Source: Nocardioidaceae bacterium (GTDB lineage: Bacteria; Actinomycetota; Actinomycetes; Propionibacteriales; Nocardioidaceae). Taken from it: a DNA stretch of 64,000 nt. The notes under the pieces were generated by a model. The model was not told the DNA's origin. It saw nothing but the letters and a program-made list of their open reading frames with translations, and did not search any database. Shown here piece by piece: positions 13,222 to 39,659 of the stretch (its first letter is position 1; every line of letters starts with the position of its first letter). The DNA lies in assembly GCA_025980475.1 (NCBI GenBank), contig JAICXL010000005.1, positions 4,636 to 68,635 on the forward strand, read 5' to 3'. The translations under genes and the position numbers were made by a program.

Positions 13222-14619
13222 TCAGCGGGGGCGGGCGCGGGTGCGGTGGGCCAGCTCGGAGAGCGCGGCGGGAAACACCTCCGCGGGCGGGGTGACCAGG
13301 CCGGCCCCGACCTGCCCGACACCGGCGACCTTGCCGGCCATACCGGTGTTGATCTGCGGCAGGATCCCGGTGCGGCAGACGCGGGTGACGTCGATGCCCG
13401 TGGCGGTGCCCTGGAAGTCGAGCACCGGGATCGTCCATCGGGGGTTCTCGCCGAGGGTGATCTCGTGCATCCGCCTGGTCGTGGCCAACGCGTCGGGCAC
13501 GCTGCCGCCGACGAAGCGCACGATCGCCGGGGCCGTGGCCATCGCGAAGCCACCGATGCCCGCGGTCTCGGTGATCGCGGAGTCACCGATGTCGGGGTTG
13601 GCGTCGTCGGGACCGTAGTCGCCGAGGTAGAGCCCGTCCGCGACCTGGGCGGGCCCGGTGAACCACTGGTCGCCGGTGCCGGCCAGCTGGATGCCGAAGT
13701 CGGTGCCGTTGCGGGACATCGCGACGACCATCGTGGACCCCTCGATGTCGCGGGCGGCGTCGAGCATCAGCTTGCAGGCAGGCATCGCCAGGTTGAGGAA
13801 GAAGTGGTCGTTGCCGCCGATGAAGCGAAGGGCGTCGGCCACCTTGGCGGGCTCGTGGCCTGACGCCACCATCGCCGGGGCGAGGTCGCGCAGCAGCATC
13901 AGGGTGCCGGCCCGGTTGCGGTTGTGCGCCTCGTCGCCCATCTGCAGCATCTGGGTCAGGATCCCGGTGACGTCGACGGGGCCGGTCGCCCGCACGGCGT
14001 CCCGCAACAGCGGACCGAGCACGGCGGACATCCAGCGCAGCCGCTCGAGGACCTCGGGTGCGTAGGCGCCGTAGCGCAGCACCTTGCCGAGGCCCTCGTT
14101 GAGCGAGCAGAAGGTACGACGGCCGGTGGCCGGGTCCTCCAGCACGTACATCCACATCGACGCGGAGACGACCCCGGCCATCGGCCCGACCGCACGGTGG
14201 TGGTGGCAGGGGTCGAGCGAGACGCCGGACCCCGACTCGAAGAGGACGACCGCAGCCTCCGGGTCGTCGACGACGCCCTCGAGCGCAGCGGCTCCCATCA
14301 GGGCTCCCCGCAGCGGGCCCGACGCGTCGGCCCAGGCGATCGGCGGACCGGCGTGCAGGAAGTCACCAGGGGCAAGACCCAGGAGCTCGCCGGCCGGCGC
14401 GACGTCGACGAGCATCGCCTGCACGTCGAGCACCGCGGCCAGCGCTCGCTCGTTGGCGTCCTTGCGCAGCGGGTCGGCGGCGACGCAGGCGAGGTCGCCC
14501 TCCGTGCCGGGCATCGGCGGCCGCCAGTCCACCCGGACCACCGGGACTGCCTGTGCCTCGACCGCGTCGGCGAGGTGGTCGGTGCCGACGGCGACGACGG
14601 ACGCGGGCGCGCTGGTCAT
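13222..14619 (-). CDS. DUF1116-family protein (YlbE/AllG-like)
   Basis: 465 aa recognised as the YlbE-type family. ATGA overlap with the upstream FdrA-like gene (14616-14619). Confidence 0.75.
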   Translation of the reverse strand: MTSAPASVVAVGTDHLADAVEAQAVPVVRVDWRPPMPGTEGDLACVAADPLRKDANERALAAVLDVQAMLVDVAPAGELLGLAPGDFLHAGPPIAWADASGPLRGALMGAAALEGVVDDPEAAVVLFESGSGVSLDPCHHHRAVGPMAGVVSASMWMYVLEDPATGRRTFCSLNEGLGKVLRYGAYAPEVLERLRWMSAVLGPLLRDAVRATGPVDVTGILTQMLQMGDEAHNRNRAGTLMLLRDLAPAMVASGHEPAKVADALRFIGGNDHFFLNLAMPACKLMLDAARDIEGSTMVVAMSRNGTDFGIQLAGTGDQWFTGPAQVADGLYLGDYGPDDANPDIGDSAITETAGIGGFAMATAPAIVRFVGGSVPDALATTRRMHEITLGENPRWTIPVLDFQGTATGIDVTRVCRTGILPQINTGMAGKVAGVGQVGAGLVTPPAEVFPAALSELAHRTRARPR

Positions 14620-16076
14620 CGGGCTCCTCCAAGGATCTCCAGGGCACGCCGGGTGGCCCCGGCGTTGGACAGGTGCACCTCGGCGCCGGCGTCGGCGAGT
14701 GCCTGCGCCTGACGGTCGAGGCCCTGCGGGTCGAGCTCGGTGCCCACGCAGCTGACCACGACGGCAGGACCCGACCGGCGCGCCCGCTCGATCGCGGGCG
14801 CGAGCCGGGAGGCGGGGTCGGACTCGGCGCCGTGGCCCAGCACCACGTCCATCAGCACCACCCCGGTGCGCGGGTCGCTGGCCACCCGGTCGAGGTGCTC
14901 GAGGCGGAGCGTCGGATCGATCATCGGGTGGGCGCGCCCGGAGGTCAGGGCGTCGTCGCCGAAGTCGACCATCAGGTGGGTATCGGCCAGCAGGTCCGTG
15001 TCGAGGGCGAGGTCGGGGGACAGCGGGATGTTGCTGCGCACCGGGCCGAGGGCCGCCGTGGCGATCAGCATCGCCTCGTCGCAGAGAGTGCCGCCGACGA
15101 AGAGGCCCCGCAGCAGGTCACCGTGCGCCTCGCCGGCGCGCCCCCAGACGGGCCAGCCGGGGAGGTCGCGGCCGAGAGCGCGCAGAGCCTGCTCCGCCGC
15201 CGCGGTCAGGTCAGGTCGTCCCTGACCCAGCAGCGCGAGCTCGACCGGCGTCGCCAGCCGGTCGGCGCAGTCGCGGACGACCTCGGCCACCTCGTCCGCG
15301 GGCGGCTTGGAGACCACCACGACGAGCTCGACGCGGGGGTCGGCGTCGAGCCGGCGCAGCGCGGCCAGCGTGGAGCGTCCGCCGATGTCGGTGGACAGGT
15401 CGCGGCCGCCGACGCCGAGCGCCGTGCCGACGCCCACGCCGGCGTGCTCCAGCAGGCAGGCGAGCTGCTGGCAGCCGGTCCCGGACGCCGCGACGATGCC
15501 GACGGGCCCAGGGGAGCAGACGTTGGCGAAGCCGAGGCCCACCCCGTCCACGACTGCGGTCCCGCAGTCGGGTCCCATCACCAGCAGGTCGCGCTCGGCC
15601 GCCACCGTCTTCAGGGCCAGCTCGTGCTCGACCGGGACGTTGTCGCTGAACACCATCACGTCATGACCGGCGTCGAGGGCATCCATGGCCTCGACCAGCG
15701 CGCTCGGACCGGGCACCGACACCAGGACCGTCCCGCCCGCGACCCGCCGCAGCGCGGCCGCGGTGGTGCGGGGCGGTGCCACGTCGGTCGGTTGCGTCGT
15801 CCGGCGCCCGGTCGCGACGAGGGCTTCGTCGACGGCGGCCAGGGCAGCGGCGAGCCGGTCCGCGGAATCCACCCGGACCGCCACCACGAGGTCGTTCGCG
15901 GTGCACTCGGGCAGCGCGAAGCCCATCTGCGAGAGCAGGTCGAGGTTGAGCGGTGTGGCCATCGCGACCTGTGCCGACTCGACACCCGGGGCCTGCTGCA
16001 CCGAGCGGCTCACCTGGAGCAGCGCGACCGAGTCGGCGTAGGCGCCGGGGCGGACCTCGACGTGGGCGTGGCTCAT
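14616..16076 (-). CDS. fdrA: FdrA-family protein (succinyl-CoA-synthetase-like fold, AllF-like)
   Basis: 486 aa with ..VSVPGPSALVEAMDALDAGHDVMVFSDNVP.. and GIVAASGTG.., typical of FdrA. ATGA overlaps on both sides. Confidence 0.8.
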   Translation of the reverse strand: MSHAHVEVRPGAYADSVALLQVSRSVQQAPGVESAQVAMATPLNLDLLSQMGFALPECTANDLVVAVRVDSADRLAAALAAVDEALVATGRRTTQPTDVAPPRTTAAALRRVAGGTVLVSVPGPSALVEAMDALDAGHDVMVFSDNVPVEHELALKTVAAERDLLVMGPDCGTAVVDGVGLGFANVCSPGPVGIVAASGTGCQQLACLLEHAGVGVGTALGVGGRDLSTDIGGRSTLAALRRLDADPRVELVVVVSKPPADEVAEVVRDCADRLATPVELALLGQGRPDLTAAAEQALRALGRDLPGWPVWGRAGEAHGDLLRGLFVGGTLCDEAMLIATAALGPVRSNIPLSPDLALDTDLLADTHLMVDFGDDALTSGRAHPMIDPTLRLEHLDRVASDPRTGVVLMDVVLGHGAESDPASRLAPAIERARRSGPAVVVSCVGTELDPQGLDRQAQALADAGAEVHLSNAGATRRALEILGGAR

Positions 16077-16861
16077 GCTTCTCCATCCTGGTGGGTCTCC
16101 TCGAGCAGCCGGCGGGCGGCGCCGAGCACGAGACCGGCTCCGGAGGTGTGGCCCACCGCGGCGAGCCGGGCTGCTGCTGCGCCGACGGCGGTTTCGTCGC
16201 CGCCCGCCAGCGCCCGCACGAGGGCAGCGAACTGCGGGATCACCTCGCCGGCAGCCGCGCAGTCGATGAGGGTGGCCGAGAGCAGGGTCGTGCGGCTCCG
16301 GGGATCGGGGAGCGGAGCCGCCGGTCGACCCAGCGCGTGGTTGGTGGCCAGCCAGCCGCAGACGACGTCGTCACCCAGCGGGGTCAGGCCCGACCCGCGG
16401 CCGAGCAGCTCGCCCAGGGGTGCCTCGAGCGCGTCGTCGAGCTCGGCCAGGGCGGTGCTGCCGGCCGCGAGCAGCGGGGCCTGCAGCTCGGCCAGGGAGC
16501 ACCGGCCGACCCGGCGCAACGAGGGCACCGAGACGTCGACCAGGCGGCCGACGAGGACCGTGGTGTCGCCCAGTCGGAGCTGGCCGTCCCCGACCCGGGC
16601 CGTGGTGGCATCGGCAAGCACGCCCAGGTGCGGAAGCGCCGTACGCAGGGCACAGGGGACGGCCGTGGCGCCCGCGGCCACCACGCCGACGCACCAGCCG
16701 TCGAGCTCGAGGTAGACCGCGTGCCGGCCTCGGTGGACGATCCTCGCGACCCGCTCCGGGCCGGCCAGACGGGCCCGCAACCGGGCCGGTGCCGCGGCGG
16801 CGACGACGGCGCGCCCGGGCCTGCCCGGGCTGGTGCACTGCACCGTTGGGGCGGCGATCAT
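16073..16861 (-). CDS. DUF2877-family protein (YlbF/AllH-like)
   Basis: Motifs GRGSGLTPLGDDVVCGWL and GHTSGAGLVLG. Internal ATG 16861 chosen because the track start at 16993 would overlap the PucR gene. TACGGT -10 lies 7 nt upstream (leaderless candidate). Confidence 0.7.
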   Translation of the reverse strand: MIAAPTVQCTSPGRPGRAVVAAAAPARLRARLAGPERVARIVHRGRHAVYLELDGWCVGVVAAGATAVPCALRTALPHLGVLADATTARVGDGQLRLGDTTVLVGRLVDVSVPSLRRVGRCSLAELQAPLLAAGSTALAELDDALEAPLGELLGRGSGLTPLGDDVVCGWLATNHALGRPAAPLPDPRSRTTLLSATLIDCAAAGEVIPQFAALVRALAGGDETAVGAAAARLAAVGHTSGAGLVLGAARRLLEETHQDGEA

Positions 16862-16914
16862 GCCTGCGACCGTATCCCCGGCGGTAGCGTTTGCCGATGT
16901 GAGGACTTGCCAGC

Positions 16915-18207
16915 GTGACCACTGAGCCCCTGCAACACTTGCCAACCGCCAGCGCCGAGGCCCTGGCGCGCATCGATGCCCTCCACTCCGCATTGACCCA
17001 GATCGTGCTCGAGGGCGGGAACCTCAGCCAGATCGCCGCCGAGGCGGCTCGGCTGCTCGACGTCGGGGTGCTGGTCACCTCCACCGACGGGCGCGAGCGG
17101 GCGGCGGCCCTGGACGACTCCGCCCGCGTGGCGCTCGACGACGAGCAGCTGTTCGAGCCGACCGGCCGCTTCCGGGTCGAGCGCGTCGGTGGCGGTGTGC
17201 TATCGGTGGGCACGGGCGAGCTGCGGATGGTGCGGGTCGCGGCGGGGGGCACCGACCTGGCCCGGTTCCTCTGCCTGCGCCGCACCGGCACGATCCCCCT
17301 CGAGGACGTGCACGCCCTCGAACGGGCCGCTGCGGTCGCGGCGCTGCTGATCACCCATGAGGAGGCGATGACCGCGGTCGAGAACAAGTACCGCGGCGAC
17401 TTCCTGCGCGATGTCTTCCTCGGTCGCGCCGGCGACGCGGCCTACGTCGCCGAGCACGCCGAGACCTTCGGCTGGGACCTCGGCCGGCCCACCGTCGTGG
17501 TGGCTGCCGAGATCGACCCCCAGACCGGTGAGGAGGAGCCGGCCTCGAGCCAGGTCCGGCGCCGGTGGCAGGAGCGGTTCGCCTATGCATGGCAGCGGGT
17601 CACCAATGCGCAGGACAAGGCGATGCCCAGCGTGGACTTCTCCTCCGAGGTGGTCACGCTGCCCGGAGTGCCCGAGGGTGCGGAGCCGACCGCGGACGCG
17701 ATGGCGATCGCCGGCAACGTCGTGGATTCCCTGGTCAGCGGGGTCGCCGGGGACAAGGGGGGAGGCAGGCGGCCGTTCTCGGTCGGCGTGAGCCGGGTCG
17801 CACGCACGATCGACGAGCTGCCGCAGGCCTACGCGCAGGCCCGCCGGGCGGTCGAGGTCGGCCGGCGCATCCACGGCGGCGGCTCGACGACGTGGTTCGA
17901 CCAGCTGGGCATCCACCGGCTGATCGCGATGGTCCCCGACGAGCGCGAGCTCGCGACCTTCGCCCGGGACGTCCTCGGCGAGCTGGCCGTCGACAGCCAC
18001 GAGGCACGCGACCTCCGCGAGACCCTGCAGGTGCTGCTCGACACCAACTTCAACGTCGCGGAGGCGGCGCGGCTGCAGTTCTTCCACTACAACACGATGC
18101 GCTACCGGGTCAGCAAGCTGGAGCGGATCCTCGGGCCGCTCGGCCACGACCCGCACCTGCGGCTCGACGTCGCGGTGGCGCTGAAGGTGCTCGAGATCCT
18201 GTCCTGA
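16915..18207 (+). CDS. PucR-family transcriptional regulator
   Basis: C-terminal PucR HTH (NVAEAARLQFFHYNTMRYRVSKLERILG). Divergent from the FdrA-type operon. Confidence 0.9.
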   Translation: MTTEPLQHLPTASAEALARIDALHSALTQIVLEGGNLSQIAAEAARLLDVGVLVTSTDGRERAAALDDSARVALDDEQLFEPTGRFRVERVGGGVLSVGTGELRMVRVAAGGTDLARFLCLRRTGTIPLEDVHALERAAAVAALLITHEEAMTAVENKYRGDFLRDVFLGRAGDAAYVAEHAETFGWDLGRPTVVVAAEIDPQTGEEEPASSQVRRRWQERFAYAWQRVTNAQDKAMPSVDFSSEVVTLPGVPEGAEPTADAMAIAGNVVDSLVSGVAGDKGGGRRPFSVGVSRVARTIDELPQAYAQARRAVEVGRRIHGGGSTTWFDQLGIHRLIAMVPDERELATFARDVLGELAVDSHEARDLRETLQVLLDTNFNVAEAARLQFFHYNTMRYRVSKLERILGPLGHDPHLRLDVAVALKVLEILS

Positions 18208-18352
18208 CCCCGGCCGCCGCCGGTGCCGCCGCCGCGCCCACAACGGTTGCCAGCGGGGCCGGCGTTCCTTCGGCATCTCTCGCCGTCGATGGTGTGTGAT
18301 GGGCCTCACTACGTTGAGGCATCTCGGTCGCACTAGTGGCAGGAGGATCCAG

Positions 18353-19795
18353 ATGTCCATGTTCACCTGGCAAGAGGTGGACCCGGCGCCCGGGGAGGCC
18401 GTCGCCCCGGGGCAGCGGCTGAGCTGGGGTCGCACCGTCGGACTCGGTGCCCAGCACGTGGTCGCGATGTTCGGGGCCACGTTCGTCTTCCCGCTGGTGA
18501 TGGGGCTCGACCCCAACCTGGCGATCTTCTTCTCCGGCGTCTGCACGGTCCTCTTCCTGCTGGTCGTGGCCAACAGGGTGCCCAGCTACCTCGGCACCAG
18601 CGCCTCCTTCGTGGCCAGCGTCGCGGCGATCCGCGCTCAGGGCGGCAGCTCGGCAGACGTCACCGGCGCCATCCTCGTGGCCGGCGTCGCGCTGGCCCTG
18701 GTCGGCGTGGTGGTGCACTTCGCCGGCTCGGGCGTGATCCACAAGGTGCTGCCGCCGGCGGTCACCGGCGCCGTGGTCATGCTGATCGGCTTCAACCTGG
18801 CGCCGGTCGTCGCCGGCACATACTGGCCCCAGGACCAGTGGATCGCGCTGCTCACCGCCACCTTCATGGTCTGCGCGGCCATCCTGCTGCCCGGCTTCTG
18901 GGCCCGGATCGCCGTGTTCCTCGCGCTGATCTTCGGCTACCTCCTCTCGTTCCTCGCCGACACCCTCTTCGGCACGATCCACTCGATGCTGCCGGGCCAG
19001 AACCTGATGATGCCCGACATCGTCAACGGCAAGGCCACGATGGTGCCCTGCCCGAAGGAGGGCGGCATCAACTGCGTGGCGTCCGCCTTCGACCACGACC
19101 GGATCTGGGCCTGGTCGGGGGTCGGCAAGGCGGACTGGATCGGCTTCCCCCACGGCACCCTGGGCGACGGCGTCTCGGTCGTGCACGGCCCGAGCCTGTC
19201 GCTGACCTTCATCCTGCTGGTGCTGCCGGGCGTGATCGCCCTCATCGCCGAGAACACCGGCCACGTCAAGGCGGTTGCCGAGATGACCGGCGACAACCTC
19301 GACCCCTACATGGGTCGGGCGCTGGCCGCCGACGGCGTCGCCACCGCCCTGGCGAGCACCTTCGGCGGCTCACCGACCACGACCTACGCCGAGAACATCG
19401 GGGTGATGGCCTCGACCAAGGTCTACTCCACGGCCGCCTACTACGTCGCGGCGGCGGTCGCCATCCTGCTCGGGCTCTGTCCGAAGTTCGGGGCGATCGT
19501 CAACGCCACCCCTGGTGGGGTCCTCGGCGGCATCACCGTGGTGCTCTACGGCATGATCGGCCTGGTCGGCGCCAAGATCTGGGTCGAGAACGGGGTGGAC
19601 TTCGGCAACCCCGTCAACATGGTCGGCCTCGCCGCGGGCATCATCGCGGGCATCGGCGGGGTCACCATCACCTTCACCGACAACTTCTCCCTCGGCGGGA
19701 TCGCGCTCGGCACGATCCTGGTCATCGTCTACTTCCACCTGGTCAAGGGCAAGAAGGAAGAGCTGGGCGCGAAGGAAGTGACCGGAGCACTGTGA
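18353..19795 (+). CDS. NCS2 (uracil/xanthine-type) nucleobase:cation symporter
   Basis: LGAQHVVAMFGATFVFPL and later ENIGVM motifs, with multiple TM segments. ATG 18353 follows AGGAGG. Confidence 0.85.
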   Translation: MSMFTWQEVDPAPGEAVAPGQRLSWGRTVGLGAQHVVAMFGATFVFPLVMGLDPNLAIFFSGVCTVLFLLVVANRVPSYLGTSASFVASVAAIRAQGGSSADVTGAILVAGVALALVGVVVHFAGSGVIHKVLPPAVTGAVVMLIGFNLAPVVAGTYWPQDQWIALLTATFMVCAAILLPGFWARIAVFLALIFGYLLSFLADTLFGTIHSMLPGQNLMMPDIVNGKATMVPCPKEGGINCVASAFDHDRIWAWSGVGKADWIGFPHGTLGDGVSVVHGPSLSLTFILLVLPGVIALIAENTGHVKAVAEMTGDNLDPYMGRALAADGVATALASTFGGSPTTTYAENIGVMASTKVYSTAAYYVAAAVAILLGLCPKFGAIVNATPGGVLGGITVVLYGMIGLVGAKIWVENGVDFGNPVNMVGLAAGIIAGIGGVTITFTDNFSLGGIALGTILVIVYFHLVKGKKEELGAKEVTGAL

Positions 19796-20667
19796 AACCG
19801 GCTCCCTTCGCCTACCTGCGCCCGCGGACCCTCGAGGAGGCACTCGAGGCGCTGGCGGCCAATGAGGGAGCCAAGGTGCTCGCGGGCGGGCAGAGCCTGG
19901 TGCCGCTGCTGTCGATGCGGTTGGCGGCACCGGGCATGCTCGTCGACATCAACGCGCTGCCGGACCTGGGGGCGATCACCGTGGCGGACGACGGGGTCCG
20001 GGTCGGCGCCCTGGCCCGGCACGCGGCCGTCCTGGCCGACGAGGGCGCCCGCCGGGTGCAACCCCTCCTCGGCAAGGCGCTGCGCCACGTCGCGCACCCC
20101 ACCATCCGCAACAGGGGTACGACGGTCGGCTCGATCGTCCACGCCGACGGGGCCGCGGAGCTGCCCGCCGTGCTCCGCCTGCTCGACGGCTGGGTGGAGG
20201 TCGCCTCGGTCGCGGGCCGACGCACGATCCCCGCGGCGGAGCTCTTCGTGGGGCCGCTCGAGAGCTCACTGCGCCACGACGAGATCGCGGTGTCGGCCAC
20301 CTTCCCCGGTCTGCGGGCAGCCGAAGGCGTCGCCTTCGACGAGGTGGCGCGGCGCCACGGTGACTACGCGATGTGTGGCGTCGCCGCGCTGGTGCGGACG
20401 GAGGGGAAGCAGGTCGTGGCGGCGCGGGCGGCCTACCTCTCGGTCGAGGACGTCCCGACGGTCGTCGACCTGACGGCGGCGCTCGCCGACGGGGTGGATA
20501 CCGCGTCCCTGGCCGCAGCCGGCGAGCTCGCCCTGGCGCACCTCGAGCCGGTGGCCGACCTGCACGCCTCGGCCGCCTATCGTGCCCAGCTGGTGCGGGT
20601 GCTCACCCGCCGGGTGGTCGAGGCGGCGCATGCGGACGCGTTGACGAGGCAGGGGGTGGCGGCATGA
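19792..20667 (+). CDS. Mo-hydroxylase FAD-binding (medium, CoxM/CutM-like) subunit
   Basis: AGGQSLVPLLSMRL FAD motif. GTGA overlap with the permease stop. Confidence 0.85.
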   Translation: MKPAPFAYLRPRTLEEALEALAANEGAKVLAGGQSLVPLLSMRLAAPGMLVDINALPDLGAITVADDGVRVGALARHAAVLADEGARRVQPLLGKALRHVAHPTIRNRGTTVGSIVHADGAAELPAVLRLLDGWVEVASVAGRRTIPAAELFVGPLESSLRHDEIAVSATFPGLRAAEGVAFDEVARRHGDYAMCGVAALVRTEGKQVVAARAAYLSVEDVPTVVDLTAALADGVDTASLAAAGELALAHLEPVADLHASAAYRAQLVRVLTRRVVEAAHADALTRQGVAA

Positions 20668-21149
20668 CCGAGGAGCTGCACGAGATCCGGCTGCACGTCA
20701 ACGGGACGTCGTACGCCCTGACCGTTCCCGGCCGCCGGCTGCTCTCCGACGCGCTGCGCCACGACCTCGGGCTCACCGGCACCCACGTCGGCTGCGAGCA
20801 CGGCGTCTGTGGCGCCTGCACGATCCTCGTCGACGGTGCCCCGATGCGCTCGTGCCTGATGTTCGCGGTCTCGGCCGTCGACGCCGAGCTCACCACCGTC
20901 GAGGGGCTGGCTGACGCCGACGGCTCGCTCGGGCCGGTGCAGCAGGCGTTCCTCGAGTGCCACGGACTGCAGTGCGGCTTCTGCACGCCCGGCTTCCTGA
21001 CCACGATCACCGCCGGGCTGCGCGACAACCCCCGGCCCACGCACGCGGAGGCCCGCGAGATGGTCGCCGGCAACCTGTGCCGCTGCACTGGCTACCAGAA
21101 CATCGTCAAGGCTGTGGAGCGGGCCGCGGAGCTCGGGGCCGGCCGATGA
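20664..21149 (+). CDS. Mo-hydroxylase [2Fe-2S] small subunit
   Basis: GCEHGVCGACT, CGFCTPG and CRCTGY cysteine motifs. ATGA overlap upstream. Confidence 0.9.
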   Translation: MTEELHEIRLHVNGTSYALTVPGRRLLSDALRHDLGLTGTHVGCEHGVCGACTILVDGAPMRSCLMFAVSAVDAELTTVEGLADADGSLGPVQQAFLECHGLQCGFCTPGFLTTITAGLRDNPRPTHAEAREMVAGNLCRCTGYQNIVKAVERAAELGAGR

Positions 21150-23584: not shown

Positions 23585-24228
23585 AGATCGCCGGTGAGGC
23601 GACCCTGGTCGCGCCCGTCGCCCAGGTCTGGGAGGCGCTGCTGGACCCCCGGGTCCTGGTGGCCACGATCCCCGGCTGCGAGCGGCTCGTCGCGACCGGC
23701 GAGAACGCCTACGACATGACCGTGACCGCCGGCGTCGCGGCGATCCGTGGGACCTACGCCGGCACCTGCGAGCTCAGCGACCTGAAGGAGCACGAGTCGC
23801 TGGTGCTGCGCGCGAGGGGCGCCGGTGCGCCGGGGACGATCGACGCCACGGTCCAGGTGCGCTTCGACGCCAACGAGGACGGCACCACCACGCTGTTCTA
23901 CGACGCGGACGCCATCGTCGGCGGGATGGTCGGCGGCGTGGGCCAGCGGATGCTCACGTCGGTGAGCAGGCGGATGGCGACGGAGTTCTTCAGCAACGTC
24001 GAGCGGGCGATCAGCGGGGTGGCGGCCCACGAGGAACCGGTTGCGCCGTCGACCGCTGCCGCCCCGACCGCGCCGGGTGTCTACACCGCGCCCCCACGGC
24101 CCGCTGGTGGGCTCGACCAGGACAGCTTCCTGAAGGGGGTGGCCCTGGGTGCCGGCCTGGTCCTGGCCGGGGCGGTCGTGGGCGGCGTCTTCGGGCGGAG
24201 GGCGCTGACGTGTCCGACCTCTCGGTGA
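23581..24228 (+). CDS. CoxG/SRPBCC-family protein with C-terminal TM anchor
   Basis: MKIAGEATLVAPVAQVWEALLDPRVL.. is a CoxG-like start. ATGA overlap with the large subunit. Confidence 0.75.
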   Translation: MKIAGEATLVAPVAQVWEALLDPRVLVATIPGCERLVATGENAYDMTVTAGVAAIRGTYAGTCELSDLKEHESLVLRARGAGAPGTIDATVQVRFDANEDGTTTLFYDADAIVGGMVGGVGQRMLTSVSRRMATEFFSNVERAISGVAAHEEPVAPSTAAAPTAPGVYTAPPRPAGGLDQDSFLKGVALGAGLVLAGAVVGGVFGRRALTCPTSR

Positions 24229-25960: not shown

Positions 25961-25991
25961 GATCGCCCTCACCGACGTGGCCGCCAGCGAT

Positions 25992-26026: not shown

Positions 26027-26032
26027 TCGCTG

Positions 26033-27181: not shown

Positions 27182-27228
27182 GGCGGACCCGCGGCGGCGG
27201 CGCGCCGGTCGTCACCCACAATGGGGCG

Positions 27229-27897: not shown

Positions 27898-28002
27898 GCG
27901 ACCGTCGTGGACCACCCGCCGCAGGAGGTGCCAACGGGAGCCCGGTCTGTCGGCAACATGTGCCGTCGCCCGGCCTGAGCGCGGACGGCTTGAATTCCTC
28001 CC

Positions 28003-32414: not shown

Positions 32415-32501
32415 GGCACGCTCCAGGGTTCGGCTCCGACGGCACTGTGCCGCCTGCTGCCACGCTACGGCGCTGCTCCCGACCCGTCCATAGGCATCCC
32501 G

Positions 32502-32924: not shown

Positions 32925-33057
32925 GCGCGTGGCCCGCGTGCCTGGCGCGGGTCCTCGGCCTGGTCCACCCAGATGTCGTTCATGCTCGTCGATCCTCCAT
33001 CTCCTCATGACCCCGCCGCCGCTGCGCATCCGCACGACCCGGCGACCGTCCCAGGGG

Positions 33058-33441: not shown

Positions 33442-33571
33442 CGGGGCAACCTAACCGGTGACCGCACGGCCGCGAAAGCCCCTGAGGCGGGTGAACCTTC
33501 GACGAGCCCGCCACGTGTGAAGGGAATGGGAGGGGGCACCGGAGGCGCCCCTGCCGACAGGAGAGCCGCCC

Positions 33572-35916: not shown

Positions 35917-36470
35917 GCAGCGAGGCCTGGTTCACGCTCCTGGTCGGCGTGGTCGCGCTGGAGCGGCTGGCCGAGCTGGTCACCTCGAAGCGCAACGCCG
36001 CCTGGAGCAGGGCGCGCGGCGGCCGGGAGACCGGGCAGCGGCACTACGCGGTGATGGTCGTGCTGCACAGCGGCCTGCTGGCCGGTGCGCTCGCCGAGAC
36101 CTGGGCGCGGCGACCGGCGTTCGTCCCGGTGCTCGGGTGGACGATGCTCGCGCTGGTGCTGGCCTCCCAGGCGCTGCGGTGGTGGTGCATCAGCACGCTC
36201 GGACCGCGCTGGAACACGAGGGTGATCGTCGTGCCCGGTCTGGCCCCGGTGGCTGCCGGGCCCTACCGCTGGCTGCGCCACCCCAACTACGTCGCGGTCG
36301 TCGTCGAGGGGTTCGCCCTGCCGCTCGTGCACACGGCCTGGATCACCGCGGCCGTGTTCACCGCCTGCAACGCCGCCCTGCTCGCGGTGCGGATCCGGGT
36401 CGAGGAGGCCGCCCTGGCCACGCTGCCGGGCGCGCCCGGCGCCGCCGGGGTCGCCGGGGCCGGGCGGTGA
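35913..36470 (+). CDS. isoprenylcysteine carboxyl methyltransferase (ICMT)-family membrane methyltransferase (SrsB-like)
   Basis: GTGA overlap with the PKS gene. TM helices and [17 protein letters not shown] motif. Confidence 0.85.
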
Positions 36471-37495: not shown

Positions 37496-37585
37496 AGGCG
37501 ATTGGCACAAGTTGCCGTGGCCCGGGCCGGCCGTTGGCTGTTCCTGCCCGTGCCGGGCCGTCGACGCCCCCCTAGATTCGACGCC

Positions 37586-38527
37586 ATGCGGATCGTGATG
37601 GCGCTCGGCGGCAACGCCATGACGTCACCCGACGGCCGCGCCCGCGTCAGCGACCAGCAGCAGGCGATCACGGGCGCCTGTGTGCACATCGCCGACCTGG
37701 TCGGGCGAGGCCACGACGTGGTGATCACCCACGGCAACGGTCCGCAGGTCGGCAACCTGCTGCTGAAGAACGAGCTCGCAGCCGCCGAGGTGCCGCCCGT
37801 CCCGCTGGACTGGTGCGGTGCGTCGACCCAGGCGACGATCGGAATCACGGTGATGGACGCGCTCGACGTCGCCCTCGCCCGGCTCGGCATCGACAAGCCC
37901 ACCGCGACGCTGGTCTCCCGCACCCTGGTGGACGCGGACGACCCCGGTTTCGCGCGGCCAACCAAGCCGATCGGGCGGCACCTCTCGCGGGACGACGCCC
38001 AGGTGCTGATCGACCACGGCCAGCACTTCGTCGAGGTTCCCGGCAAGGGCTGGCGTCGCGTGGTCGCCTCCCCGGAGCCGGTCGAGTGCCTGGACGCGCC
38101 GGCCGCCGACACGCTGCTCGGCGCCGGCTACGTGGTGGTCTGCTCCGGCGGCGGCGGGATCCCGACGGTCAGGCGATCCGACGGTTCGCTCGCCGGGGTC
38201 GAGGCCGTGATCGACAAGGACCTCACGGCCTCGCTGGTCGCCAGGCACATCAACGCCGACGTGCTGGTGATCGCCACCGATGTCGACCATGCGGTCACCG
38301 ACTACGGCACCGACCACGAGCAGCCGATCGGCGAGGTCACGGCGGCGGAGATGCGCCGGATCGCCGAGCAGCAGCACTTCGCCGCCGGCTCGATGGGCCC
38401 CAAGATCGAGGCGGTGACCCGCTTCGCCGAGCACGGCGGCACCGGGGTGATCACCTCGCTGGGCAACATCTCGGACGCGGTCGGTGGCCGCGCCGGCACC
38501 CGCGTCGTACCCGCTCCCCGAACCTGA
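37586..38527 (+). CDS. arcC: carbamate kinase
   Basis: [12 protein letters not shown].., [15 protein letters not shown], and GGGGIP with a C-terminal GSMGPKIEA block; 313 aa. Confidence 0.9.
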
Positions 38528-38552
38528 ACGCGCAGAAACCGAAAGGAACCCC

Positions 38553-39659
38553 ATGCCCTCCGCCATCGAAGTACGCAAGGTGCCGCTGCACTCCGTCTCC
38601 GACGCCTCCGAGCTCGGCAGGCTGATCGACGACGGCGTCTTCGAGGCCGATCGGGTGATCGCGGTGATCGGCAAGACCGAGGGCAACGGCGGCGTCAACG
38701 ACTACACGCGGATCATCGCCGACCGGGCCTTCCGCGAGATGCTGGTGTCGAAGGGCGCGGACGCCGAACGCGTCAAGGAGGTCCCGATCGTCTGGTCCGG
38801 CGGCACCGACGGGGTGATCAGCCCGCACGCGACGATCTTCGCGACCGTCGACCCGGATCCTGCACACGGGCCGACCGACGAGCCGCGCCTGACCGTCGGC
38901 TTCGCGATGAGCGAGAAGCTGCTCCCCGAGGACATCGGTCGGCAGGCGATGGTCAGCAAGGTCGCCGACGCGGTCAAGGTCGCGATGGAACGCGCGGGCA
39001 TCACCGACCCGGCCGAGGTGCACTACGTGCAGACCAAGACGCCGCTGCTCACGATCGACACGATCCAGGACGCGAAGAGCCGTGGCCACGACGTCTTCAC
39101 CGAGGACACCCTGGCCTCGATGGACGTCTCCAACGGCGGGACGGCACTGGGCATCGCGGTGGCTCTCGGGGAGATCGAGATGCCGCGCGACGAGGACGTG
39201 CTGCGTGACCGCTCGCTCTACTCCTCGGTGGCCTCGTGCTCCTCGGGGGTGGAGCTGGACCGGGCCCAGGTCGTGGTGGTGGGCAACGCCCCCGGGGTCG
39301 GCGGCCGGTACCGTATCGGGCACTCGGTGATGAAGGACGCCCTTGACCAGGACGGCGTCTGGGAGGCGATCCGGTCCGCCGGCCTCGACCTGCCCGAGCG
39401 GCCGCGCACCGCGGACCTCGACGGCCGGCTGGTCAACGTGTTCCTCAAGTGCGAGGCGTCCCAGGACGGCCAGGTGCGTGGGCGTCGCAACGCGATGCTC
39501 GACGACTCCGACGTGCACTGGCACCGGCAGATCAAGGCCTGTGTCGGCGGGGTGGCCGCGGCGGTCACCGGTGACCCCGCGGTGTTCGTGTCGGTGTCGG
39601 CCGCCCACCAGGGCCCGGACGGCGGCGGGCCGGTCGCCGCGATCGTGGACCTGGGCTGA
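38553..39659 (+). CDS. ring-opening amidohydrolase of the AtzD/TrzD/barbiturase family (barbiturase or cyanuric acid hydrolase)
   Basis: 368 aa. [34 protein letters not shown] and a C-terminal [15 protein letters not shown] all match my recollection of AtzD (GKTEGNGCVNDYTR .. AEHQGPAGGGPFAVI). RBS AAAGGAA precedes ATG 38553. Confidence 0.85.

What the first reader, a model, noticed from the sequence alone, without database searches (positions are those of the whole stretch)
13222..39659. Possible undescribed ATP-yielding branch of oxidative pyrimidine (barbiturate) catabolism
Seen: within about 26 kb lie three blocks. (i) A PucR regulator divergent from a translationally coupled FdrA/DUF1116/DUF2877 trio. 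(ii) An NCS2 uracil/xanthine-type permease joined by 4-nt overlaps to a three-subunit Mo/FeS/FAD hydroxylase, a CoxG-like protein and an amidase-signature amidase. (iii) A carbamate kinase followed 25 nt later by a homologue of the AtzD/TrzD/barbiturase ring-opening amidohydrolases. Established (recalled): oxidative pyrimidine degradation runs uracil -> barbiturate (uracil/thymine dehydrogenase, EC 1.17.99.4) -> ureidomalonate (barbiturase, EC 3.5.2.1) -> urea + malonate (ureidomalonase). E. coli fdrA-ylbE-ylbF (allFGH) has been reported to encode oxamate carbamoyltransferase, which converts oxalurate (H2N-CO-NH-CO-COO-) plus Pi to carbamoyl phosphate + oxamate, and the neighbouring carbamate kinase then makes ATP. 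Inference: ureidomalonate (H2N-CO-NH-CO-CH2-COO-) is the one-methylene homologue of oxalurate. The trio here could therefore phosphorolyse the barbiturase product to carbamoyl phosphate + malonamate. Carbamate kinase would then harvest ATP, and the amidase would release malonate + NH3. To my knowledge, neither such a substrate-level-phosphorylation variant nor the genes for the Mo-dependent uracil dehydrogenase have been assigned.
Basis: partly seen in the sequence, partly recalled or inferred. Interest (0 to 1): 0.85.

Follow-up and report, generated by a model that had tools for sequence, protein, structure and literature searches.

The report
Barbiturate pathway cluster with carbamate kinase
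This is a real gene set, conserved across many actinobacteria, for breaking down uracil through barbiturate; it also carries a carbamate kinase and relatives of a recently identified carbamoyl-transferring enzyme, so the pathway may release ring nitrogen without urease and gain ATP, which nobody has yet tested.

Summary
All the gene families are present at the stated coordinates, with the stated 4-nt overlaps and the 25-nt gap.

The AtzD-family gene is a barbiturase. It is about 85% identical to the crystallised Rhodococcus enzyme and carries the full barbiturase specificity signature.

The blocks belong together:
- Carbamate kinase sits directly upstream of barbiturase in 78 of 80 related genomes.
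- The FdrA/DUF1116/DUF2877 trio lies divergently upstream of the Mo-hydroxylase operon in 13 of 19 loci with enough flank.
- Compact operons (CoxMSL-CoxG-HydAB-CK-Bar) and whole-cluster examples in Embleya and Nonomuraea join the blocks.

A CoA-transferase at 40275-41552 is also conserved.

The Rhodococcus variant, from the species group in which urea and malonate were shown as products, has a different barbiturase-coupled amidase and neither a carbamate kinase nor the trio within 10 kb.

Independently, a proteobacterial plasmid encodes fdrA-DUF1116-cyanuric acid hydrolase-carbamate kinase as one operon.

Ureidomalonate phosphorolysis to carbamoyl phosphate is therefore the best-supported reading (about 0.55). 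No biochemistry supports it yet, and the role of HydAB is unexplained. I found no paper in the held library that describes it.

The parts
13222..14619 (-). AllG-like subunit (DUF1116), last gene of the AllH-AllF-AllG operon
   Evidence: PF06545 AllG at 324 bits. 46% identical to E. coli AllG/YlbE. Orthologues lie next to the CoxMSL operon.
14616..16076 (-). AllF/FdrA-like subunit (related to succinyl-CoA synthetase alpha)
   Evidence: Ligase_CoA and CoA_binding domains. NCBIfam FdrA 378 bits, below the 433 cutoff. PDB 3DMY (FdrA) 215 bits. 37% identical to E. coli AllF. ATGA overlaps on both sides.
16073..16993 (-). AllH-like subunit (DUF2877). The true start is probably downstream of 16993, because the longest ORF overlaps the PucR ORF.
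   Evidence: PF11392 AllH at 76 bits. Weak match to E. coli AllH, 36% over 103 aa. Orthologues are 246-280 aa.
16915..18207 (+). PucR-family transcriptional regulator, divergent from the trio
   Evidence: HTH_30 and GGDEF_2 domains. Conserved between the trio and the permease/CoxM in many loci. Two PucR genes are present in the Rhodococcus cluster.
18296..19795 (+). NCS2 nucleobase:cation symporter, closest to pyrimidine-type transporters
   Evidence: Xan_ur_permease. Best NCBIfam hits are RutG (337 bits) and uracil permease (240 bits), ahead of xanthine permease (140 bits); all are below cutoff. 62-64% identical to two permeases in the Rhodococcus bar cluster.
19792..20667 (+). FAD-binding (CoxM-like) subunit of the Mo hydroxylase
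   Evidence: FAD_binding_5 and CO_deh_flav_C domains. GTGA overlap with the permease.
20664..21149 (+). [2Fe-2S] (CoxS-like) subunit
   Evidence: Fer2 and Fer2_2 domains. ATGA overlaps.
21146..23584 (+). Molybdopterin (CoxL-like, form II) subunit; candidate uracil/thymine dehydrogenase
   Evidence: Ald_Xan_dh_C, MoCoBD_1 and MoCoBD_2 domains. YRGAGR loop. Nearest solved structures are N-heterocycle hydroxylases: quinoline 2-oxidoreductase 1T3Q at 457 bits and 6-hydroxypseudooxynicotine dehydrogenase. In one operon with Bar in L061, L065, L128, L143 and L150. 62% identical to the CoxL in the Rhodococcus bar cluster.
23581..24228 (+). CoxG/SRPBCC-like accessory protein
   Evidence: PF06240 COXG. 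Follows CoxL in 61/70 loci.
24210..25601 (+). Amidase-signature amidase (candidate malonamidase or ureidomalonase)
   Evidence: PF01425 at 361 bits. NCBIfam PRK07486 at 472 bits, cutoff 465. Occupies the slot taken by a CN-hydrolase in other loci, and the two never occur together. 38.5% identical to the Bar-coupled amidase of Rhodococcus.
28003..30135 (+).
   Evidence: Hydant_A_N, Hydantoinase_A and Hydant_A_C domains. Best NCBIfam hit is caprolactamase alpha, 480 bits against a cutoff of 1000. Conserved in 42/80 Bar loci (limited by flank length) and in 19/26 CoxL loci with at least 6 kb downstream. Also present in Rhodococcus, Embleya and Nonomuraea.
30132..32057 (+). HydB, hydantoinase/oxoprolinase B subunit
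   Evidence: PF02538 at 451 bits. Nearest PDB entries are N-methylhydantoinase 7HK5 and caprolactamase 6YRA. 75-93% identical across loci. Its 90%-identity cluster spans Nocardioides and Pseudonocardia.
37586..38527 (+). Carbamate kinase
   Evidence: AA_kinase domain. NCBIfam carbamate kinase PRK12352 at 301 bits, above the 266 cutoff; arcC at 341 bits, below 358. 40% identical to E. coli AllK. Directly upstream of Bar in 78/80 loci.
38553..39659 (+). Barbiturase (EC 3.5.2.1)
   Evidence: PF09663 at 480 bits. 655 bits to PDB 5HWE 'Barbiturase' against 326 bits or less to cyanuric acid hydrolases. Carries the Bar signature N194, H324, K328, V348, S349, as defined in PMC3758960.
40275..41552 (-). 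Family-III (CaiB-like) CoA-transferase, candidate malonate CoA-transferase
   Evidence: Best NCBIfam hits are dicarboxylate CoA-transferases (succinate-glutarate, mesaconate, oxalate), all below cutoff. Within 10 kb of Bar in 61/80 loci. Paired with a carboxyltransferase in Rhodococcus, Embleya, Nonomuraea and 8 other loci.

Best explanation
Window 13222-41552 holds the two modules of a conserved actinobacterial system for oxidative pyrimidine catabolism. Two unrelated insertions interrupt it, at about 25.8-27.9 kb and 32.1-37.5 kb.

Shown by sequence:
- The 38553 product is a barbiturase, which converts barbiturate to ureidomalonate.

Inferred from conserved operon membership:
- The NCS2 permease imports uracil or thymine.
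- The form-II CoxMSL enzyme, with CoxG, is the orphan Mo-dependent uracil/thymine dehydrogenase that makes barbiturate.

Inferred from context and chemical analogy only:
- The AllH-AllF-AllG trio is a diverged relative of E. coli oxamate carbamoyltransferase. It phosphorolyses the N-acylurea ureidomalonate to carbamoyl phosphate plus malonamate.
- The carbamate kinase next to barbiturase converts carbamoyl phosphate plus ADP to ATP, NH3 and CO2.
- The amidase hydrolyses malonamate to malonate plus NH3. A CN-hydrolase fills this slot in other lineages.
- The CaiB-type CoA-transferase activates malonate to malonyl-CoA. In some genomes a carboxyltransferase then decarboxylates it.

The net effect would be that both ureido nitrogens are released without urease, with one ATP gained per ring.

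HydAB is an ATP-dependent enzyme of the lactam-hydrolase family. It is a core member with no assigned step. My guess is ring opening of 5-methylbarbiturate from thymine, or of another cyclic amide that barbiturase does not accept.
For: - Barbiturase identity.
- Carbamate kinase is directly upstream of Bar in 78/80 genomes from Nocardioides, Marmoricola, Phycicoccus, Knoellia, Pseudonocardia, Jatrophihabitans and Streptosporangiaceae. This holds while the surrounding genes are rearranged.
- Single operons CoxMSL-CoxG-(amidase)-HydAB-(CaiB)-CK-Bar occur in L061, L065, L128, L143 and L150.
- AllF/AllG lie divergently upstream of (PucR)-(NCS2)-CoxMSL in 13/19 loci with at least 7 kb of flank, including lineages of about 53% GC.
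- The same link is seen in Nocardioides genomes, in Embleya, where everything lies within about 35 kb, and in Nonomuraea.
- No allantoin or ureidoglycolate genes flank the trio, so no oxalurate source is encoded nearby.
- The Rhodococcus erythropolis-group cluster comes from the species group with the demonstrated urea + malonate route. It has UPRTase, Bar and a translationally coupled amidase of a different lineage (38.5% identity), plus CoxMSL, CoxG and HydA. It has no carbamate kinase and no trio within 10 kb. This fits a hydrolytic variant and a phosphorolytic variant.
- Independent association in another phylum: a plasmid operon fdrA-DUF1116-cyanuric acid hydrolase (R/T/R/G/G signature)-carbamate kinase, with DUF2877 and atzF nearby.
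- allFGHK has been published next to biuret and triuret hydrolase genes in comammox bacteria and ammonia-oxidising archaea (PMC12625717).
- The AllFGH reaction, oxalurate + Pi <-> carbamoyl phosphate + oxamate, was shown with purified protein (PMC11326118). Ureidomalonate differs from oxalurate by one methylene.
- An amide hydrolase slot after CoxG is filled by an AS amidase in 19 loci and a CN-hydrolase in 18, never by both. The nearest solved relatives of the CN-hydrolase include the omega-amidases Nit2 and Nit3.
Against: - There are no enzyme data for any step except by homology to Bar.
- The trio shares only 37%, 46% and about 36% identity with E. coli AllF, AllG and AllH, and falls below the NCBIfam FdrA cutoff.
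- Carbamate kinase is not in the trio's operon.
- Several clusters have the trio but no nearby carbamate kinase (L123, L129, L135, Nonomuraea).
- 6 of 19 loci with at least 7 kb of upstream flank have no trio.
- In Nocardioides sp. CN2-186 the trio/CoxMSL block and the CK-Bar block lie 2.7 Mb apart.
- The published biochemistry gives urea + malonate through a hydrolytic ureidomalonase (cited in PMC4051656 and PMC3758960). The window's amidase falls in the same NCBIfam subfamily, PRK07486, as the Rhodococcus Bar-coupled amidase, so it could itself be a ureidomalonase.
- HydAB is universally conserved and ATP-consuming, yet it has no role in the scheme, so the scheme is incomplete.
- The 80 genome loci are the closest relatives of the window's Bar (82-90% identity), and all loci share ancestry. 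The counts therefore overstate the number of independent events.
Confidence: 0.55

Rival explanations
1. Classical hydrolytic pathway only. The amidase (or the CN-hydrolase) is the ureidomalonase and yields urea plus malonate. The AllHFG trio and the carbamate kinase serve a different ureide, such as oxalurate from purine breakdown. They lie in the neighbourhood only because PucR-type regulators co-control nucleobase nitrogen scavenging.
For: - Urea and malonate are the reported products in Rhodococcus (cited in PMC3758960 and PMC4051656).
- The window's amidase passes the same NCBIfam subfamily model as the Bar-coupled Rhodococcus amidase.
- The only characterised AllFGH acts on oxalurate.
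- The trio/CoxMSL block can lie 2.7 Mb from Bar, or stand without Bar within 10 kb (L118, L137, L160).
Against: - No allantoinase, allantoate amidohydrolase or ureidoglycolate dehydrogenase genes lie near the trio in the window or in related loci.
- This reading does not explain carbamate kinase next to Bar in 78/80 genomes.
- Nor does it explain the fdrA-DUF1116-CAH-CK operon on a plasmid.
- The amidase is absent from two thirds of the clusters.
Confidence: 0.2
2. HydAB, not the trio, feeds the carbamate kinase. Like 5-oxoprolinase, HydAB would phosphorylate an amide oxygen with ATP, here on ureidomalonate or urea. Cleavage would then leave carbamoyl phosphate, and the carbamate kinase would recover the ATP. 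The result is an ATP-neutral, nickel-free way of cleaving the ureido group.
For: - HydA-HydB-(CaiB)-CK-Bar are contiguous in compact operons.
- HydB is the most conserved partner, at 75-93% identity.
- Its nearest characterised relatives are ATP-dependent lactam hydrolases.
- The acyl-phosphate step is my recollection of the 5-oxoprolinase mechanism, not a result obtained here.
Against: - HydAB is equally conserved in clusters with no carbamate kinase nearby: Rhodococcus, L058, L100, L110, L123, L129, L135 and Nonomuraea. Its role therefore seems independent of carbamate kinase.
- No member of the family is known to release an acyl phosphate as a product.
- This reading leaves the trio unexplained.
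Confidence: 0.1
3. In this cluster the trio is not a carbamoyltransferase. It would be an enzyme like succinyl-CoA synthetase that acts on the malonyl moiety, for example forming malonyl-CoA or malonyl phosphate from ureidomalonate or malonate. The carbamate kinase would then have an unrelated or biosynthetic role.
For: - AllF has the succinyl-CoA synthetase alpha fold and Ligase_CoA/CoA_binding domains.
- The trio is diverged from the E. coli enzyme.
Against: - A dedicated CoA-transferase is already conserved in the cluster.
- The purified E. coli homologue is a carbamoyltransferase that needs no CoA.
- The recurring pairing of the trio with carbamate kinase in E. coli, the plasmid operon and nitrifiers points to carbamoyl phosphate.
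Confidence: 0.07

Closest known systems
Oxidative pyrimidine degradation of Rhodococcus erythropolis JCM 3132: uracil/thymine dehydrogenase EC 1.17.99.4, barbiturase EC 3.5.2.1, ureidomalonase
   Same: - The barbiturase is orthologous (about 85% identity, same specificity signature).
- The R. qingshengii cluster shares orthologues of NCS2, PucR, CoxM, CoxS, CoxL, CoxG, HydA and CaiB at 42-70% identity.
- It has the UPRTase gene upstream of bar. I recall that from the original cloning paper, which I could not read here.
   Different: - In Rhodococcus, Bar is translationally coupled to an amidase only 38.5% identical to the window's amidase.
- There is no carbamate kinase and no AllFGH trio within 10 kb.
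- In the window type, carbamate kinase occupies the position next to Bar and the trio is attached to the hydroxylase operon.
E. coli allFGHK: oxamate carbamoyltransferase (oxamic transcarbamylase) plus catabolic carbamate kinase (PMC11326118, PMC9843812)
   Same: - The same three protein families (FdrA-like, DUF1116, DUF2877) are encoded together and translationally coupled.
- A carbamate kinase is present in the same system.
- The proposed chemistry is the same: N-acylurea + Pi -> carbamoyl phosphate + amide.
   Different: - Gene order is H-F-G rather than F-G-H-K.
- Identity is 37%, 46% and about 36%, and the FdrA model scores below its NCBIfam cutoff.
- The carbamate kinase is not in the trio's operon but beside barbiturase.
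- The context is pyrimidine and barbiturate rather than allantoin, with no allB, allC, allD or allE nearby.
- The hosts are presumably aerobic soil actinobacteria rather than a fermenting enteric bacterium.
Plasmid operon fdrA-DUF1116-cyanuric acid hydrolase-carbamate kinase (Klebsiella quasipneumoniae pKqs_SB610_3, Aminobacter sp. SR38 plasmid), and the allFGHK genes next to biuH/trtA in comammox bacteria and ammonia-oxidising archaea (PMC12625717)
   Same: An AllFG(H)-type enzyme and a carbamate kinase are encoded together with an enzyme that generates an acyclic N-acylureide from a ring or polyureide.
   Different: - The ring-opening enzyme there carries the cyanuric acid hydrolase signature R/T/R/G/G.
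- There is no Mo hydroxylase and no HydAB; atzF and a BMP/ABC transporter are present instead.
- The authors of the nitrifier study read allFGHK as oxalurate degradation.
Carbamoyl-phosphate-based substrate-level phosphorylation: arginine deiminase, agmatine deiminase/putrescine carbamoyltransferase, and the YgeW/YqeA system in anaerobic urate degradation
   Same: The logic is the same: phosphorolysis of a ureido compound, followed by carbamate kinase making ATP.
   Different: Those systems use carbamoyltransferases of the ATCase/OTCase fold acting on alkylureas. This one uses the unrelated AllFGH architecture and an acylurea.

Membership tests
Barbiturase clade (group VI) of the AtzD/TrzD/Bar Toblerone-fold ring-opening amidohydrolases | Full-length match to the family model | tested here: met
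   PF09663 at 480 bits covering profile positions 1-358 of 358. TIGR02714 at 589 bits.
Barbiturase clade (group VI) of the AtzD/TrzD/Bar Toblerone-fold ring-opening amidohydrolases | Closer to a characterised barbiturase than to cyanuric acid hydrolases | tested here: met
   655 bits to PDB 5HWE 'Barbiturase', against 326, 318, 266 and 238 bits to TrzD, the Moorella enzyme, AtzD and the Azorhizobium cyanuric acid hydrolase.
Barbiturase clade (group VI) of the AtzD/TrzD/Bar Toblerone-fold ring-opening amidohydrolases | Specificity signature Asn194, His324, Lys328, Val348, Ser/Ala349, where AtzD has Arg, Thr, Arg, Gly, Gly (PMC3758960) | tested here: met
   N194, H324, K328, V348 and S349 are all present. 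For contrast, the plasmid enzymes show R/T/R/G/G.
Barbiturase clade (group VI) of the AtzD/TrzD/Bar Toblerone-fold ring-opening amidohydrolases | Hydrolyses barbiturate and not cyanuric acid | not testable with these tools
   This needs an enzyme assay.
AllFGH oxamate carbamoyltransferase (OXTCase) | Three co-encoded subunits: FdrA-like, DUF1116 and DUF2877 | tested here: met
   Pfam AllG, Ligase_CoA and AllH on three genes joined by ATGA overlaps.
AllFGH oxamate carbamoyltransferase (OXTCase) | Sequence similarity to the characterised E. coli enzyme at equivalog level | tested here: not met
   The NCBIfam FdrA subfamily model scores 378 bits, below its 433 cutoff. Identity is 37%, 46% and 36% (the last over 103 aa). 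The trio is homologous but is a distinct subfamily.
AllFGH oxamate carbamoyltransferase (OXTCase) | Operon with carbamate kinase and an allantoin-catabolic context (allB, allC, allD, allE) | tested here: not met
   The carbamate kinase lies 21 kb away beside Bar. No allantoin genes are present in the window or in related loci.
AllFGH oxamate carbamoyltransferase (OXTCase) | Catalyses oxalurate + Pi <-> carbamoyl phosphate + oxamate | not testable with these tools
   This needs reconstitution of the enzyme. Substrate preference between ureidomalonate and oxalurate is the key unknown.
Mo hydroxylase of the xanthine dehydrogenase/CODH family, form-II CoxL type | Three subunits (FAD, 2x[2Fe-2S], Mo-pterin) with full domain sets | tested here: met
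   NCBIfam NF040766 'CODH_aero_grp5' scores 1489 bits against a cutoff of 950.
Genuine (form-I) aerobic CO dehydrogenase | Form-I active-site loop with the Cu-binding cysteine. The motif AYxCSFR is recalled, not tested against a reference here. | tested here: not met
   The loop reads PYRGAGRPQG. TIGR02416 scores 479 bits against a cutoff of 991. The nearest solved structures are N-heterocycle hydroxylases.
Uracil/thymine dehydrogenase EC 1.17.99.4 | Oxidises uracil or thymine at C6 to (5-methyl)barbiturate | not testable with these tools
   I found no reference sequence. The assignment rests on operon membership with Bar in several orders and in the Rhodococcus erythropolis group.
Carbamate kinase | Passes a curated family model | tested here: met
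   NF009007 carbamate kinase at 301 bits, above the 266 cutoff. TIGR00746 at 341 bits, just under 358. 40% identical to E. coli AllK.
ATP-dependent hydantoinase/oxoprolinase (HyuAB, OplAB, CapAB) family | A and B subunits with full-length domains | tested here: met
   The nearest PDB entries are N-methylhydantoinase and caprolactamase.
ATP-dependent hydantoinase/oxoprolinase (HyuAB, OplAB, CapAB) family | Equivalog of a characterised member (caprolactamase or acetophenone carboxylase) | tested here: not met
   CapA scores 480 bits and CapB 167 bits, each against a cutoff of 1000. The substrate is unknown.
Malonamidase E2 (amidase-signature family) | Close sequence relationship to the characterised MAE2 | tested here: not met
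   Only about 89 bits to MAE2, against 210 bits to GatA and 184-191 bits to urethanases and AtzE. It is an amidase-signature enzyme, but its specificity is not inferable.

The most novel reading that the evidence does not exclude
AllFGH-type enzymes are a general class of N-acylureide phosphorylases that partner Toblerone-fold ring-opening amidohydrolases. With barbiturase they would cleave ureidomalonate. With cyanuric acid hydrolase they would cleave carboxybiuret or biuret. Both pyrimidine and s-triazine ring catabolism would then have urease-independent, ATP-yielding branches through carbamoyl phosphate and carbamate kinase. In the same system, the form-II CoxL enzyme (currently auto-named CO dehydrogenase) would be the orphan uracil/thymine dehydrogenase, and HydAB would be a new ATP-dependent amidohydrolase of the pathway.
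Probability: 0.35. Interest if true: 0.85.

Novelty: new variant of a known kind. Interest (0 to 1): 0.75.

Why it matters
- The oxidative pyrimidine pathway has been known since the 1950s. As far as I could establish, only barbiturase has a gene.
- This cluster gives testable gene candidates for the orphan uracil/thymine dehydrogenase, for the step or steps that consume ureidomalonate, and for malonate activation.
- If the trio phosphorolyses ureidomalonate, the pathway conserves energy and frees both ureido nitrogens without nickel-dependent urease.
- That would also widen the substrate range of the newly defined AllFGH enzyme class beyond oxalurate.
- The parallel operon with cyanuric acid hydrolase suggests the same logic applies to s-triazine degradation. 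It would also bear on how allFGHK genes are read in nitrifier genomes.
- There is an annotation consequence. Current curated models would name the Mo subunit 'aerobic carbon-monoxide dehydrogenase large subunit' and the barbiturase 'cyanuric acid amidohydrolase'. Both names are probably wrong for this family.

Tried and rejected
- **Shared operator.** I looked for a common PucR-type operator upstream of AllH/PucR, NCS2, HydA and the carbamate kinase, using k-mer enrichment over orthologous upstream regions. TGCCAA/TTGGCA is enriched (14-33% against 1% in a coding background), and a TGGCA-N3-9-TGCCA palindrome occurs upstream of 25% of carbamate kinase genes. The background was coding DNA and the motif resembles a -35 box, so the result is inconclusive.
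- **CK-Bar fusion.** The apparent fusion protein P0348 lies on a contig whose HydA and carbamate kinase genes are also fragmented. I treat it as an assembly artefact.
- **Malonamidase E2.** Orthology of the amidase to malonamidase E2 was rejected at 89 bits.
- **Oxalurate source.** I looked for allantoin or ureidoglycolate genes near the trio that could supply oxalurate and found none.
- **HydAB plus carbamate kinase as an ATP-recycling pair.** I downgraded this because HydAB is conserved where no carbamate kinase is nearby.
- **ORF clustering.** My first all-against-all clustering of ORFs was contaminated by antisense ORFs. I used only the families that I then confirmed by Pfam.
- **Papers not available.** Seffernick et al. 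2012 (PMC3415516) is not held, and I did not find the Soong et al. 2001 and 2002 papers in the library. Statements about them come from papers that cite them or from my memory.
- **Rhodococcus beyond 10 kb.** I could not check whether the Rhodococcus genome has a trio or a carbamate kinase further out than 10 kb.

Full report
**What is in the window**

The window is about 73% G+C, so I called genes by third-position GC and then scanned them against Pfam and NCBIfam.

- Minus strand: AllH/DUF2877 (16993-16073), FdrA/AllF-like (16076-14616) and AllG/DUF1116 (14619-13222), joined by ATGA overlaps.
- Divergent from these: a PucR-family regulator (16915-18207).
- Next: an NCS2 permease (18296-19795). 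Its best curated matches are RutG and uracil permease rather than xanthine permease, although all are below cutoff.
- GTGA/ATGA overlaps join the permease to FAD, 2Fe-2S and Mo-pterin subunits (19792-23584), a CoxG protein and an amidase-signature amidase (to 25601).
- A carbamate kinase (37586-38527) is followed 25 nt later by an AtzD/TrzD/Bar-family gene (38553-39659).
- The CoxL loop reads YRGAGR, which is form II.

- a hydantoinase/oxoprolinase A/B pair at 28003-32057;
- a family-III CoA-transferase at 40275-41552 on the minus strand.

The rest of the window is unrelated housekeeping: helicase-nucleases, ThiF/rhodanese, TetR and a DEAD helicase. Two stretches inside the region also look unrelated: 25850-27897, and 32100-37510, which holds a type III polyketide synthase and a geranylgeranyl-reductase-family protein.

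**The ring-opening enzyme is a barbiturase**

- It scores 655 bits against PDB 5HWE 'Barbiturase' and aligns end to end at roughly 85% identity. It scores 326 bits or less against four cyanuric acid hydrolases.
- Peat et al. (PMC3758960) defined a barbiturase signature of Asn194, His324, Lys328, Val348 and Ser/Ala349, where cyanuric acid hydrolases have Arg, Thr, Arg, Gly, Gly. The window protein has N194, H324, K328, V348 and S349.
- The NCBIfam equivalog model for cyanuric acid amidohydrolase nevertheless passes its cutoff (478 against 360 bits). Automatic annotation would therefore misname this gene.

**Do the blocks belong together?**

*Genome scan with the barbiturase.* This returned 80 species-representative genomes with 82-90% identical homologues. 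They come from Nocardioides, Marmoricola, Phycicoccus, Knoellia, Oryzobacter, Pseudonocardia, Jatrophihabitans and Streptosporangiaceae. I compared the window's proteins with these loci by tblastn, with 10 kb of flank on each side:

| Gene | Loci with the gene (of 80) |
|---|---|
| Carbamate kinase, directly upstream of Bar | 78 |
| CoA-transferase | 61 |
| HydB | 55 |
| HydA | 42 |
| Amidase | 14 |
| CoxG | 11 |
| CoxL | 7 |

The counts for HydA, HydB, the amidase, CoxG and CoxL are limited by flank length.

Compact single-strand operons exist:
- N. terrigena L065: CoxS-CoxL-CoxG-amidase-HydA-HydB-CK-Bar.
- Jatrophihabitans L061: CoxM-CoxS-CoxL-CoxG-HydA-HydB-CaiB-CK-Bar.

*Metagenome scan with CoxL.* This returned 80 loci at 68-87% identity, analysed:
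- CoxM is present in 57/57 loci and CoxG in 61/70.
- HydA is present in 19/26 loci with at least 6 kb downstream.
- AllF, usually with AllG, lies divergently upstream in 13/19 loci with at least 7 kb upstream. Some have PucR and the permease in between; in others it abuts CoxM directly.
- Three of these loci (L151, L154, L160) share CoxL at 68% identity. L160, the one I profiled, is about 53% G+C, so the link is not confined to one lineage.

*Longer records.*
- In N. agariphilus the trio/hydroxylase block and the Bar block lie about 16 kb apart.
- In Nocardioides sp. CN2-186 they are 2.7 Mb apart on one contig.
- In Embleya (Kitasatosporales) everything lies within about 35 kb: HydAB, CaiB, carboxyltransferase, CK, Bar, CN-hydrolase, CoxG/L/S/M, NCS2, PucR, AllF, AllG and XdhC.
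- In Nonomuraea the same set spans 43 kb but has no carbamate kinase.

The system therefore consists of two modules, which may be fused or separate:
- Module A: the trio, divergent from PucR-NCS2-CoxMSL-CoxG-amide hydrolase.
- Module B: HydAB-(CaiB)-CK-Bar.

**The amide hydrolase slot**

I examined the position downstream of CoxG in 56 loci:
- 19 loci have an amidase-signature amidase there.
- 18 have a carbon-nitrogen hydrolase (Pfam CN_hydrolase).
- 19 have neither, and none has both.

This pattern suggests that two unrelated enzymes can each supply one amide-hydrolysing step.

- The nearest solved relatives of the CN-hydrolase include the omega-amidases Nit2 and Nit3, as well as formamidases and aliphatic amidases.
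- The window's amidase is generic. It is closest to GatA, urethanases and AtzE, and it scores only about 89 bits against malonamidase E2.

**The Rhodococcus comparison**

The only organism in which the pathway's products were established is R. erythropolis JCM 3132 (urea and malonate through ureidomalonase, as cited in PMC3758960 and PMC4051656).

I rebuilt its barbiturase sequence from the PDB alignment and used it to find a Rhodococcus qingshengii homologue, 99% identical over 89% of the query. Its neighbourhood contains:
- a UPRTase gene divergent from bar, which I recall from the original cloning paper;
- Bar overlapping an amidase;
- an aminotransferase, an NCS2 permease, CoxM/S/L (54%, 61% and 62% identical to the window's), a CoxG-like gene and HydA;
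- on the other side, CaiB (61%) with a carboxyltransferase, and two PucR genes.

No carbamate kinase and no trio lie within 10 kb. The Bar-coupled amidase is only 38.5% identical to the window's amidase, whereas the other shared proteins are 42-82% identical. Both amidases do fall in NCBIfam subfamily PRK07486 (715 and 472 bits).

This has three consequences:
- It ties the form-II CoxMSL enzyme to barbiturase in the reference species group.
- It shows that HydAB is common to both variants.
- It shows that the carbamate kinase and the trio distinguish the window-type variant.

**An independent association**

In the plasmid collection, Klebsiella quasipneumoniae pKqs_SB610_3 matched both the Bar query and the AllG query. 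An Aminobacter sp. SR38 plasmid matched both at the same identities.

The annotated Klebsiella region carries one operon: hypothetical-fdrA-DUF1116-ring-opening amidohydrolase-carbamate kinase. It is followed by an IS element, an amidohydrolase, a BMP/ABC transporter and DUF2877, with atzF upstream.

The ring-opening enzyme there has the cyanuric acid hydrolase signature R/T/R/G/G. The AllFG(H) plus carbamate kinase module therefore partners both branches of the Toblerone-fold family, in two phyla.

A 2025 study reported allFGHK next to biuret and triuret hydrolase genes in comammox Nitrospira and ammonia-oxidising archaea. Its authors read these genes as oxalurate degradation (PMC12625717).

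**Mechanism**

E. coli AllFGH has been purified and catalyses oxamate + carbamoyl phosphate <-> oxalurate + Pi. It sits in an operon with the catabolic carbamate kinase AllK (PMC11326118). The window's trio is homologous but diverged: 37%, 46% and about 36% identity, and below the NCBIfam FdrA cutoff.

Within the barbiturate pathway the only N-acylureide is ureidomalonate, together with its methyl analogue from thymine. If the trio works in this pathway, that is its likely substrate, and the products would be carbamoyl phosphate and malonamate.

The remaining steps then follow:
- The carbamate kinase makes ATP.
- The amidase or the CN-hydrolase releases malonate.
- The CaiB-type transferase forms malonyl-CoA, and in many genomes a carboxyltransferase acts on it afterwards.

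How each step is supported:

| Step | Basis |
|---|---|
| Barbiturase | Shown by sequence |
| Hydroxylase as uracil/thymine dehydrogenase | Strong context |
| Trio (phosphorolysis), amidase and CoA-transferase steps | Inference only |

I put the phosphorolytic step at about 0.55.

**What does not fit**

- HydAB is the most conserved partner. HydB is 75-93% identical across loci, and its 90%-identity cluster spans Nocardioides and Pseudonocardia. It resembles ATP-dependent lactam hydrolases such as N-methylhydantoinase and caprolactamase.
- HydAB has no step in the scheme. Because it is kept where no carbamate kinase is nearby (Rhodococcus, L100, L123, L129, L135, Nonomuraea), an ATP cycle between HydAB and carbamate kinase is unlikely. 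A ring-opening role for 5-methylbarbiturate is my speculation.
- Some clusters have the trio but no adjacent carbamate kinase.
- 6 of 19 well-flanked loci lack the trio.
- The window's amidase could itself be a ureidomalonase. In that case a hydrolytic and a phosphorolytic route would coexist.
- All of the counts come from related genomes, so they overstate the number of independent events.

**Novelty**

Full-text searches of the held library found no paper that:
- assigns genes to uracil/thymine dehydrogenase;
- links AllFGH homologues or carbamate kinase to barbiturate catabolism;
- links them to cyanuric acid hydrolase.

The library lacks most subscription journals, and the key Soong and Seffernick papers could not be read. 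Prior description therefore cannot be excluded.

I classify this as a new variant of a known kind: a known pathway and a known enzyme class in a new combination that implies a new substrate.

Noticed in passing
window 28003-32057; L001-L160, L165, L167, L171: The HydA/HydB pair (ATP-dependent hydantoinase/oxoprolinase family) is a core member of the barbiturase system in both the Rhodococcus-type and the window-type clusters. HydB is unusually conserved: 75-93% identical across loci, and its 90%-identity cluster spans Nocardioides and Pseudonocardia. Its substrate in this pathway is unknown.
   Followed up: partly
L169 11723-15855 (K. quasipneumoniae plasmid NZ_CP084773.1 47722-51854); also Aminobacter sp. 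SR38 plasmid NZ_CP062120.1 at about 62.8-65.4 kb: A contiguous operon fdrA-DUF1116-ring-opening amidohydrolase-carbamate kinase, with DUF2877 and atzF nearby. The ring-opening enzyme has the cyanuric acid hydrolase signature R/T/R/G/G. This suggests a carbamoyl-phosphate branch in cyanuric acid catabolism.
   Followed up: partly
L019, L058, L105, L108, L110, L115, L116, L118, L123-L125, L150, L151, L154, L160, L167 (directly after CoxG): A CN_hydrolase (nitrilase-superfamily amidase) occupies the same slot as the amidase-signature amidase. The two are mutually exclusive across 56 loci (18 CN-hydrolase, 19 AS amidase, 19 neither).
   Followed up: partly
window 21146-23584 and 38553-39659: Curated NCBIfam models would name the Mo subunit 'aerobic carbon-monoxide dehydrogenase large subunit' (NF040766, 1489 bits) and the barbiturase 'cyanuric acid amidohydrolase' (NF052395, 478 bits against a cutoff of 360). 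Both names are probably wrong for this family.
   Followed up: partly
L166 3740-4243; L010, L018, L020, L021, L025, L030, L034, L036, L037, L043, L047, L048, L063, L074 (1-7 kb upstream of CK-Bar): A CDA-fold deaminase (dCMP_cyt_deam_1, with HPE and PCxxC motifs) lies between HydB and the carbamate kinase in 14 of 80 barbiturase loci. It may feed cytosine into the pathway as uracil. It is not present in the window.
   Followed up: partly
L165 4340-5851; L035, L039, L054, L057, L067, L073, L075, L080, L167, L171: A fused AccD/AccA-type carboxyltransferase sits next to the CaiB-like CoA-transferase in Rhodococcus, Embleya, Nonomuraea and 8 other loci. It is a candidate malonyl-CoA decarboxylating step. 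It is not present in the window.
   Followed up: no
window 32100-37510: An insertion lies between HydB and the carbamate kinase. It holds two small ORFs, a geranylgeranyl-reductase-family flavoprotein (33572-34837) overlapping a type III polyketide synthase (34825-35916), and an unassigned 407-aa ORF on the minus strand. It is absent from the compact operons elsewhere, and it looks like an alkylresorcinol/alkylpyrone-type cassette.
   Followed up: no
window about 27200-27897 (ORF 26683-27897); L003, L007, L030, L040, L090 and others: A gene whose product looks to me like a PlsC-type acyltransferase (no Pfam scan run on it) recurs in 15 loci, between the amidase and HydA in several of them. It is probably a passenger gene. 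The adjacent AAA_16 ORF (25850-27181) has no clear role.
   Followed up: no
window 37490-37530, 27920-27960, 16890-16950, 18240-18265: TTGCCA/TGGCAA-like hexamers recur upstream of the carbamate kinase, HydA, PucR/AllH and NCS2. A TGGCA-N3-9-TGCCA palindrome is found upstream of 25% of orthologous carbamate kinase genes. This could be a shared operator or simply -35-like boxes.
   Followed up: partly
L170 (C. freundii IncN plasmid NZ_CP133851.1 26168-29985), and possibly other enterobacterial plasmids: A small cassette of hypothetical 411-aa protein, cyanuric acid hydrolase-type enzyme and NCS2 permease sits on this IncN plasmid. Many other clinical Enterobacterales plasmids carry a cyanuric acid hydrolase-type gene at the same identity, but I did not check their neighbourhoods. 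The 411-aa protein had no match to AllG.
   Followed up: no
window 41569-47969: Two adjacent proteins of about 1,060-1,075 aa with UvrD-helicase and PD-(D/E)XK nuclease domains (AdnAB-like) begin 17 nt from the divergent CoA-transferase start. They are unrelated to the pathway.
   Followed up: no
L166 4827-6299 (protein P0348): An apparent carbamate kinase-barbiturase fusion ORF of 490 aa. The contig has several fragmented genes, so this is probably a frameshift artefact rather than a true fusion.
   Followed up: yes
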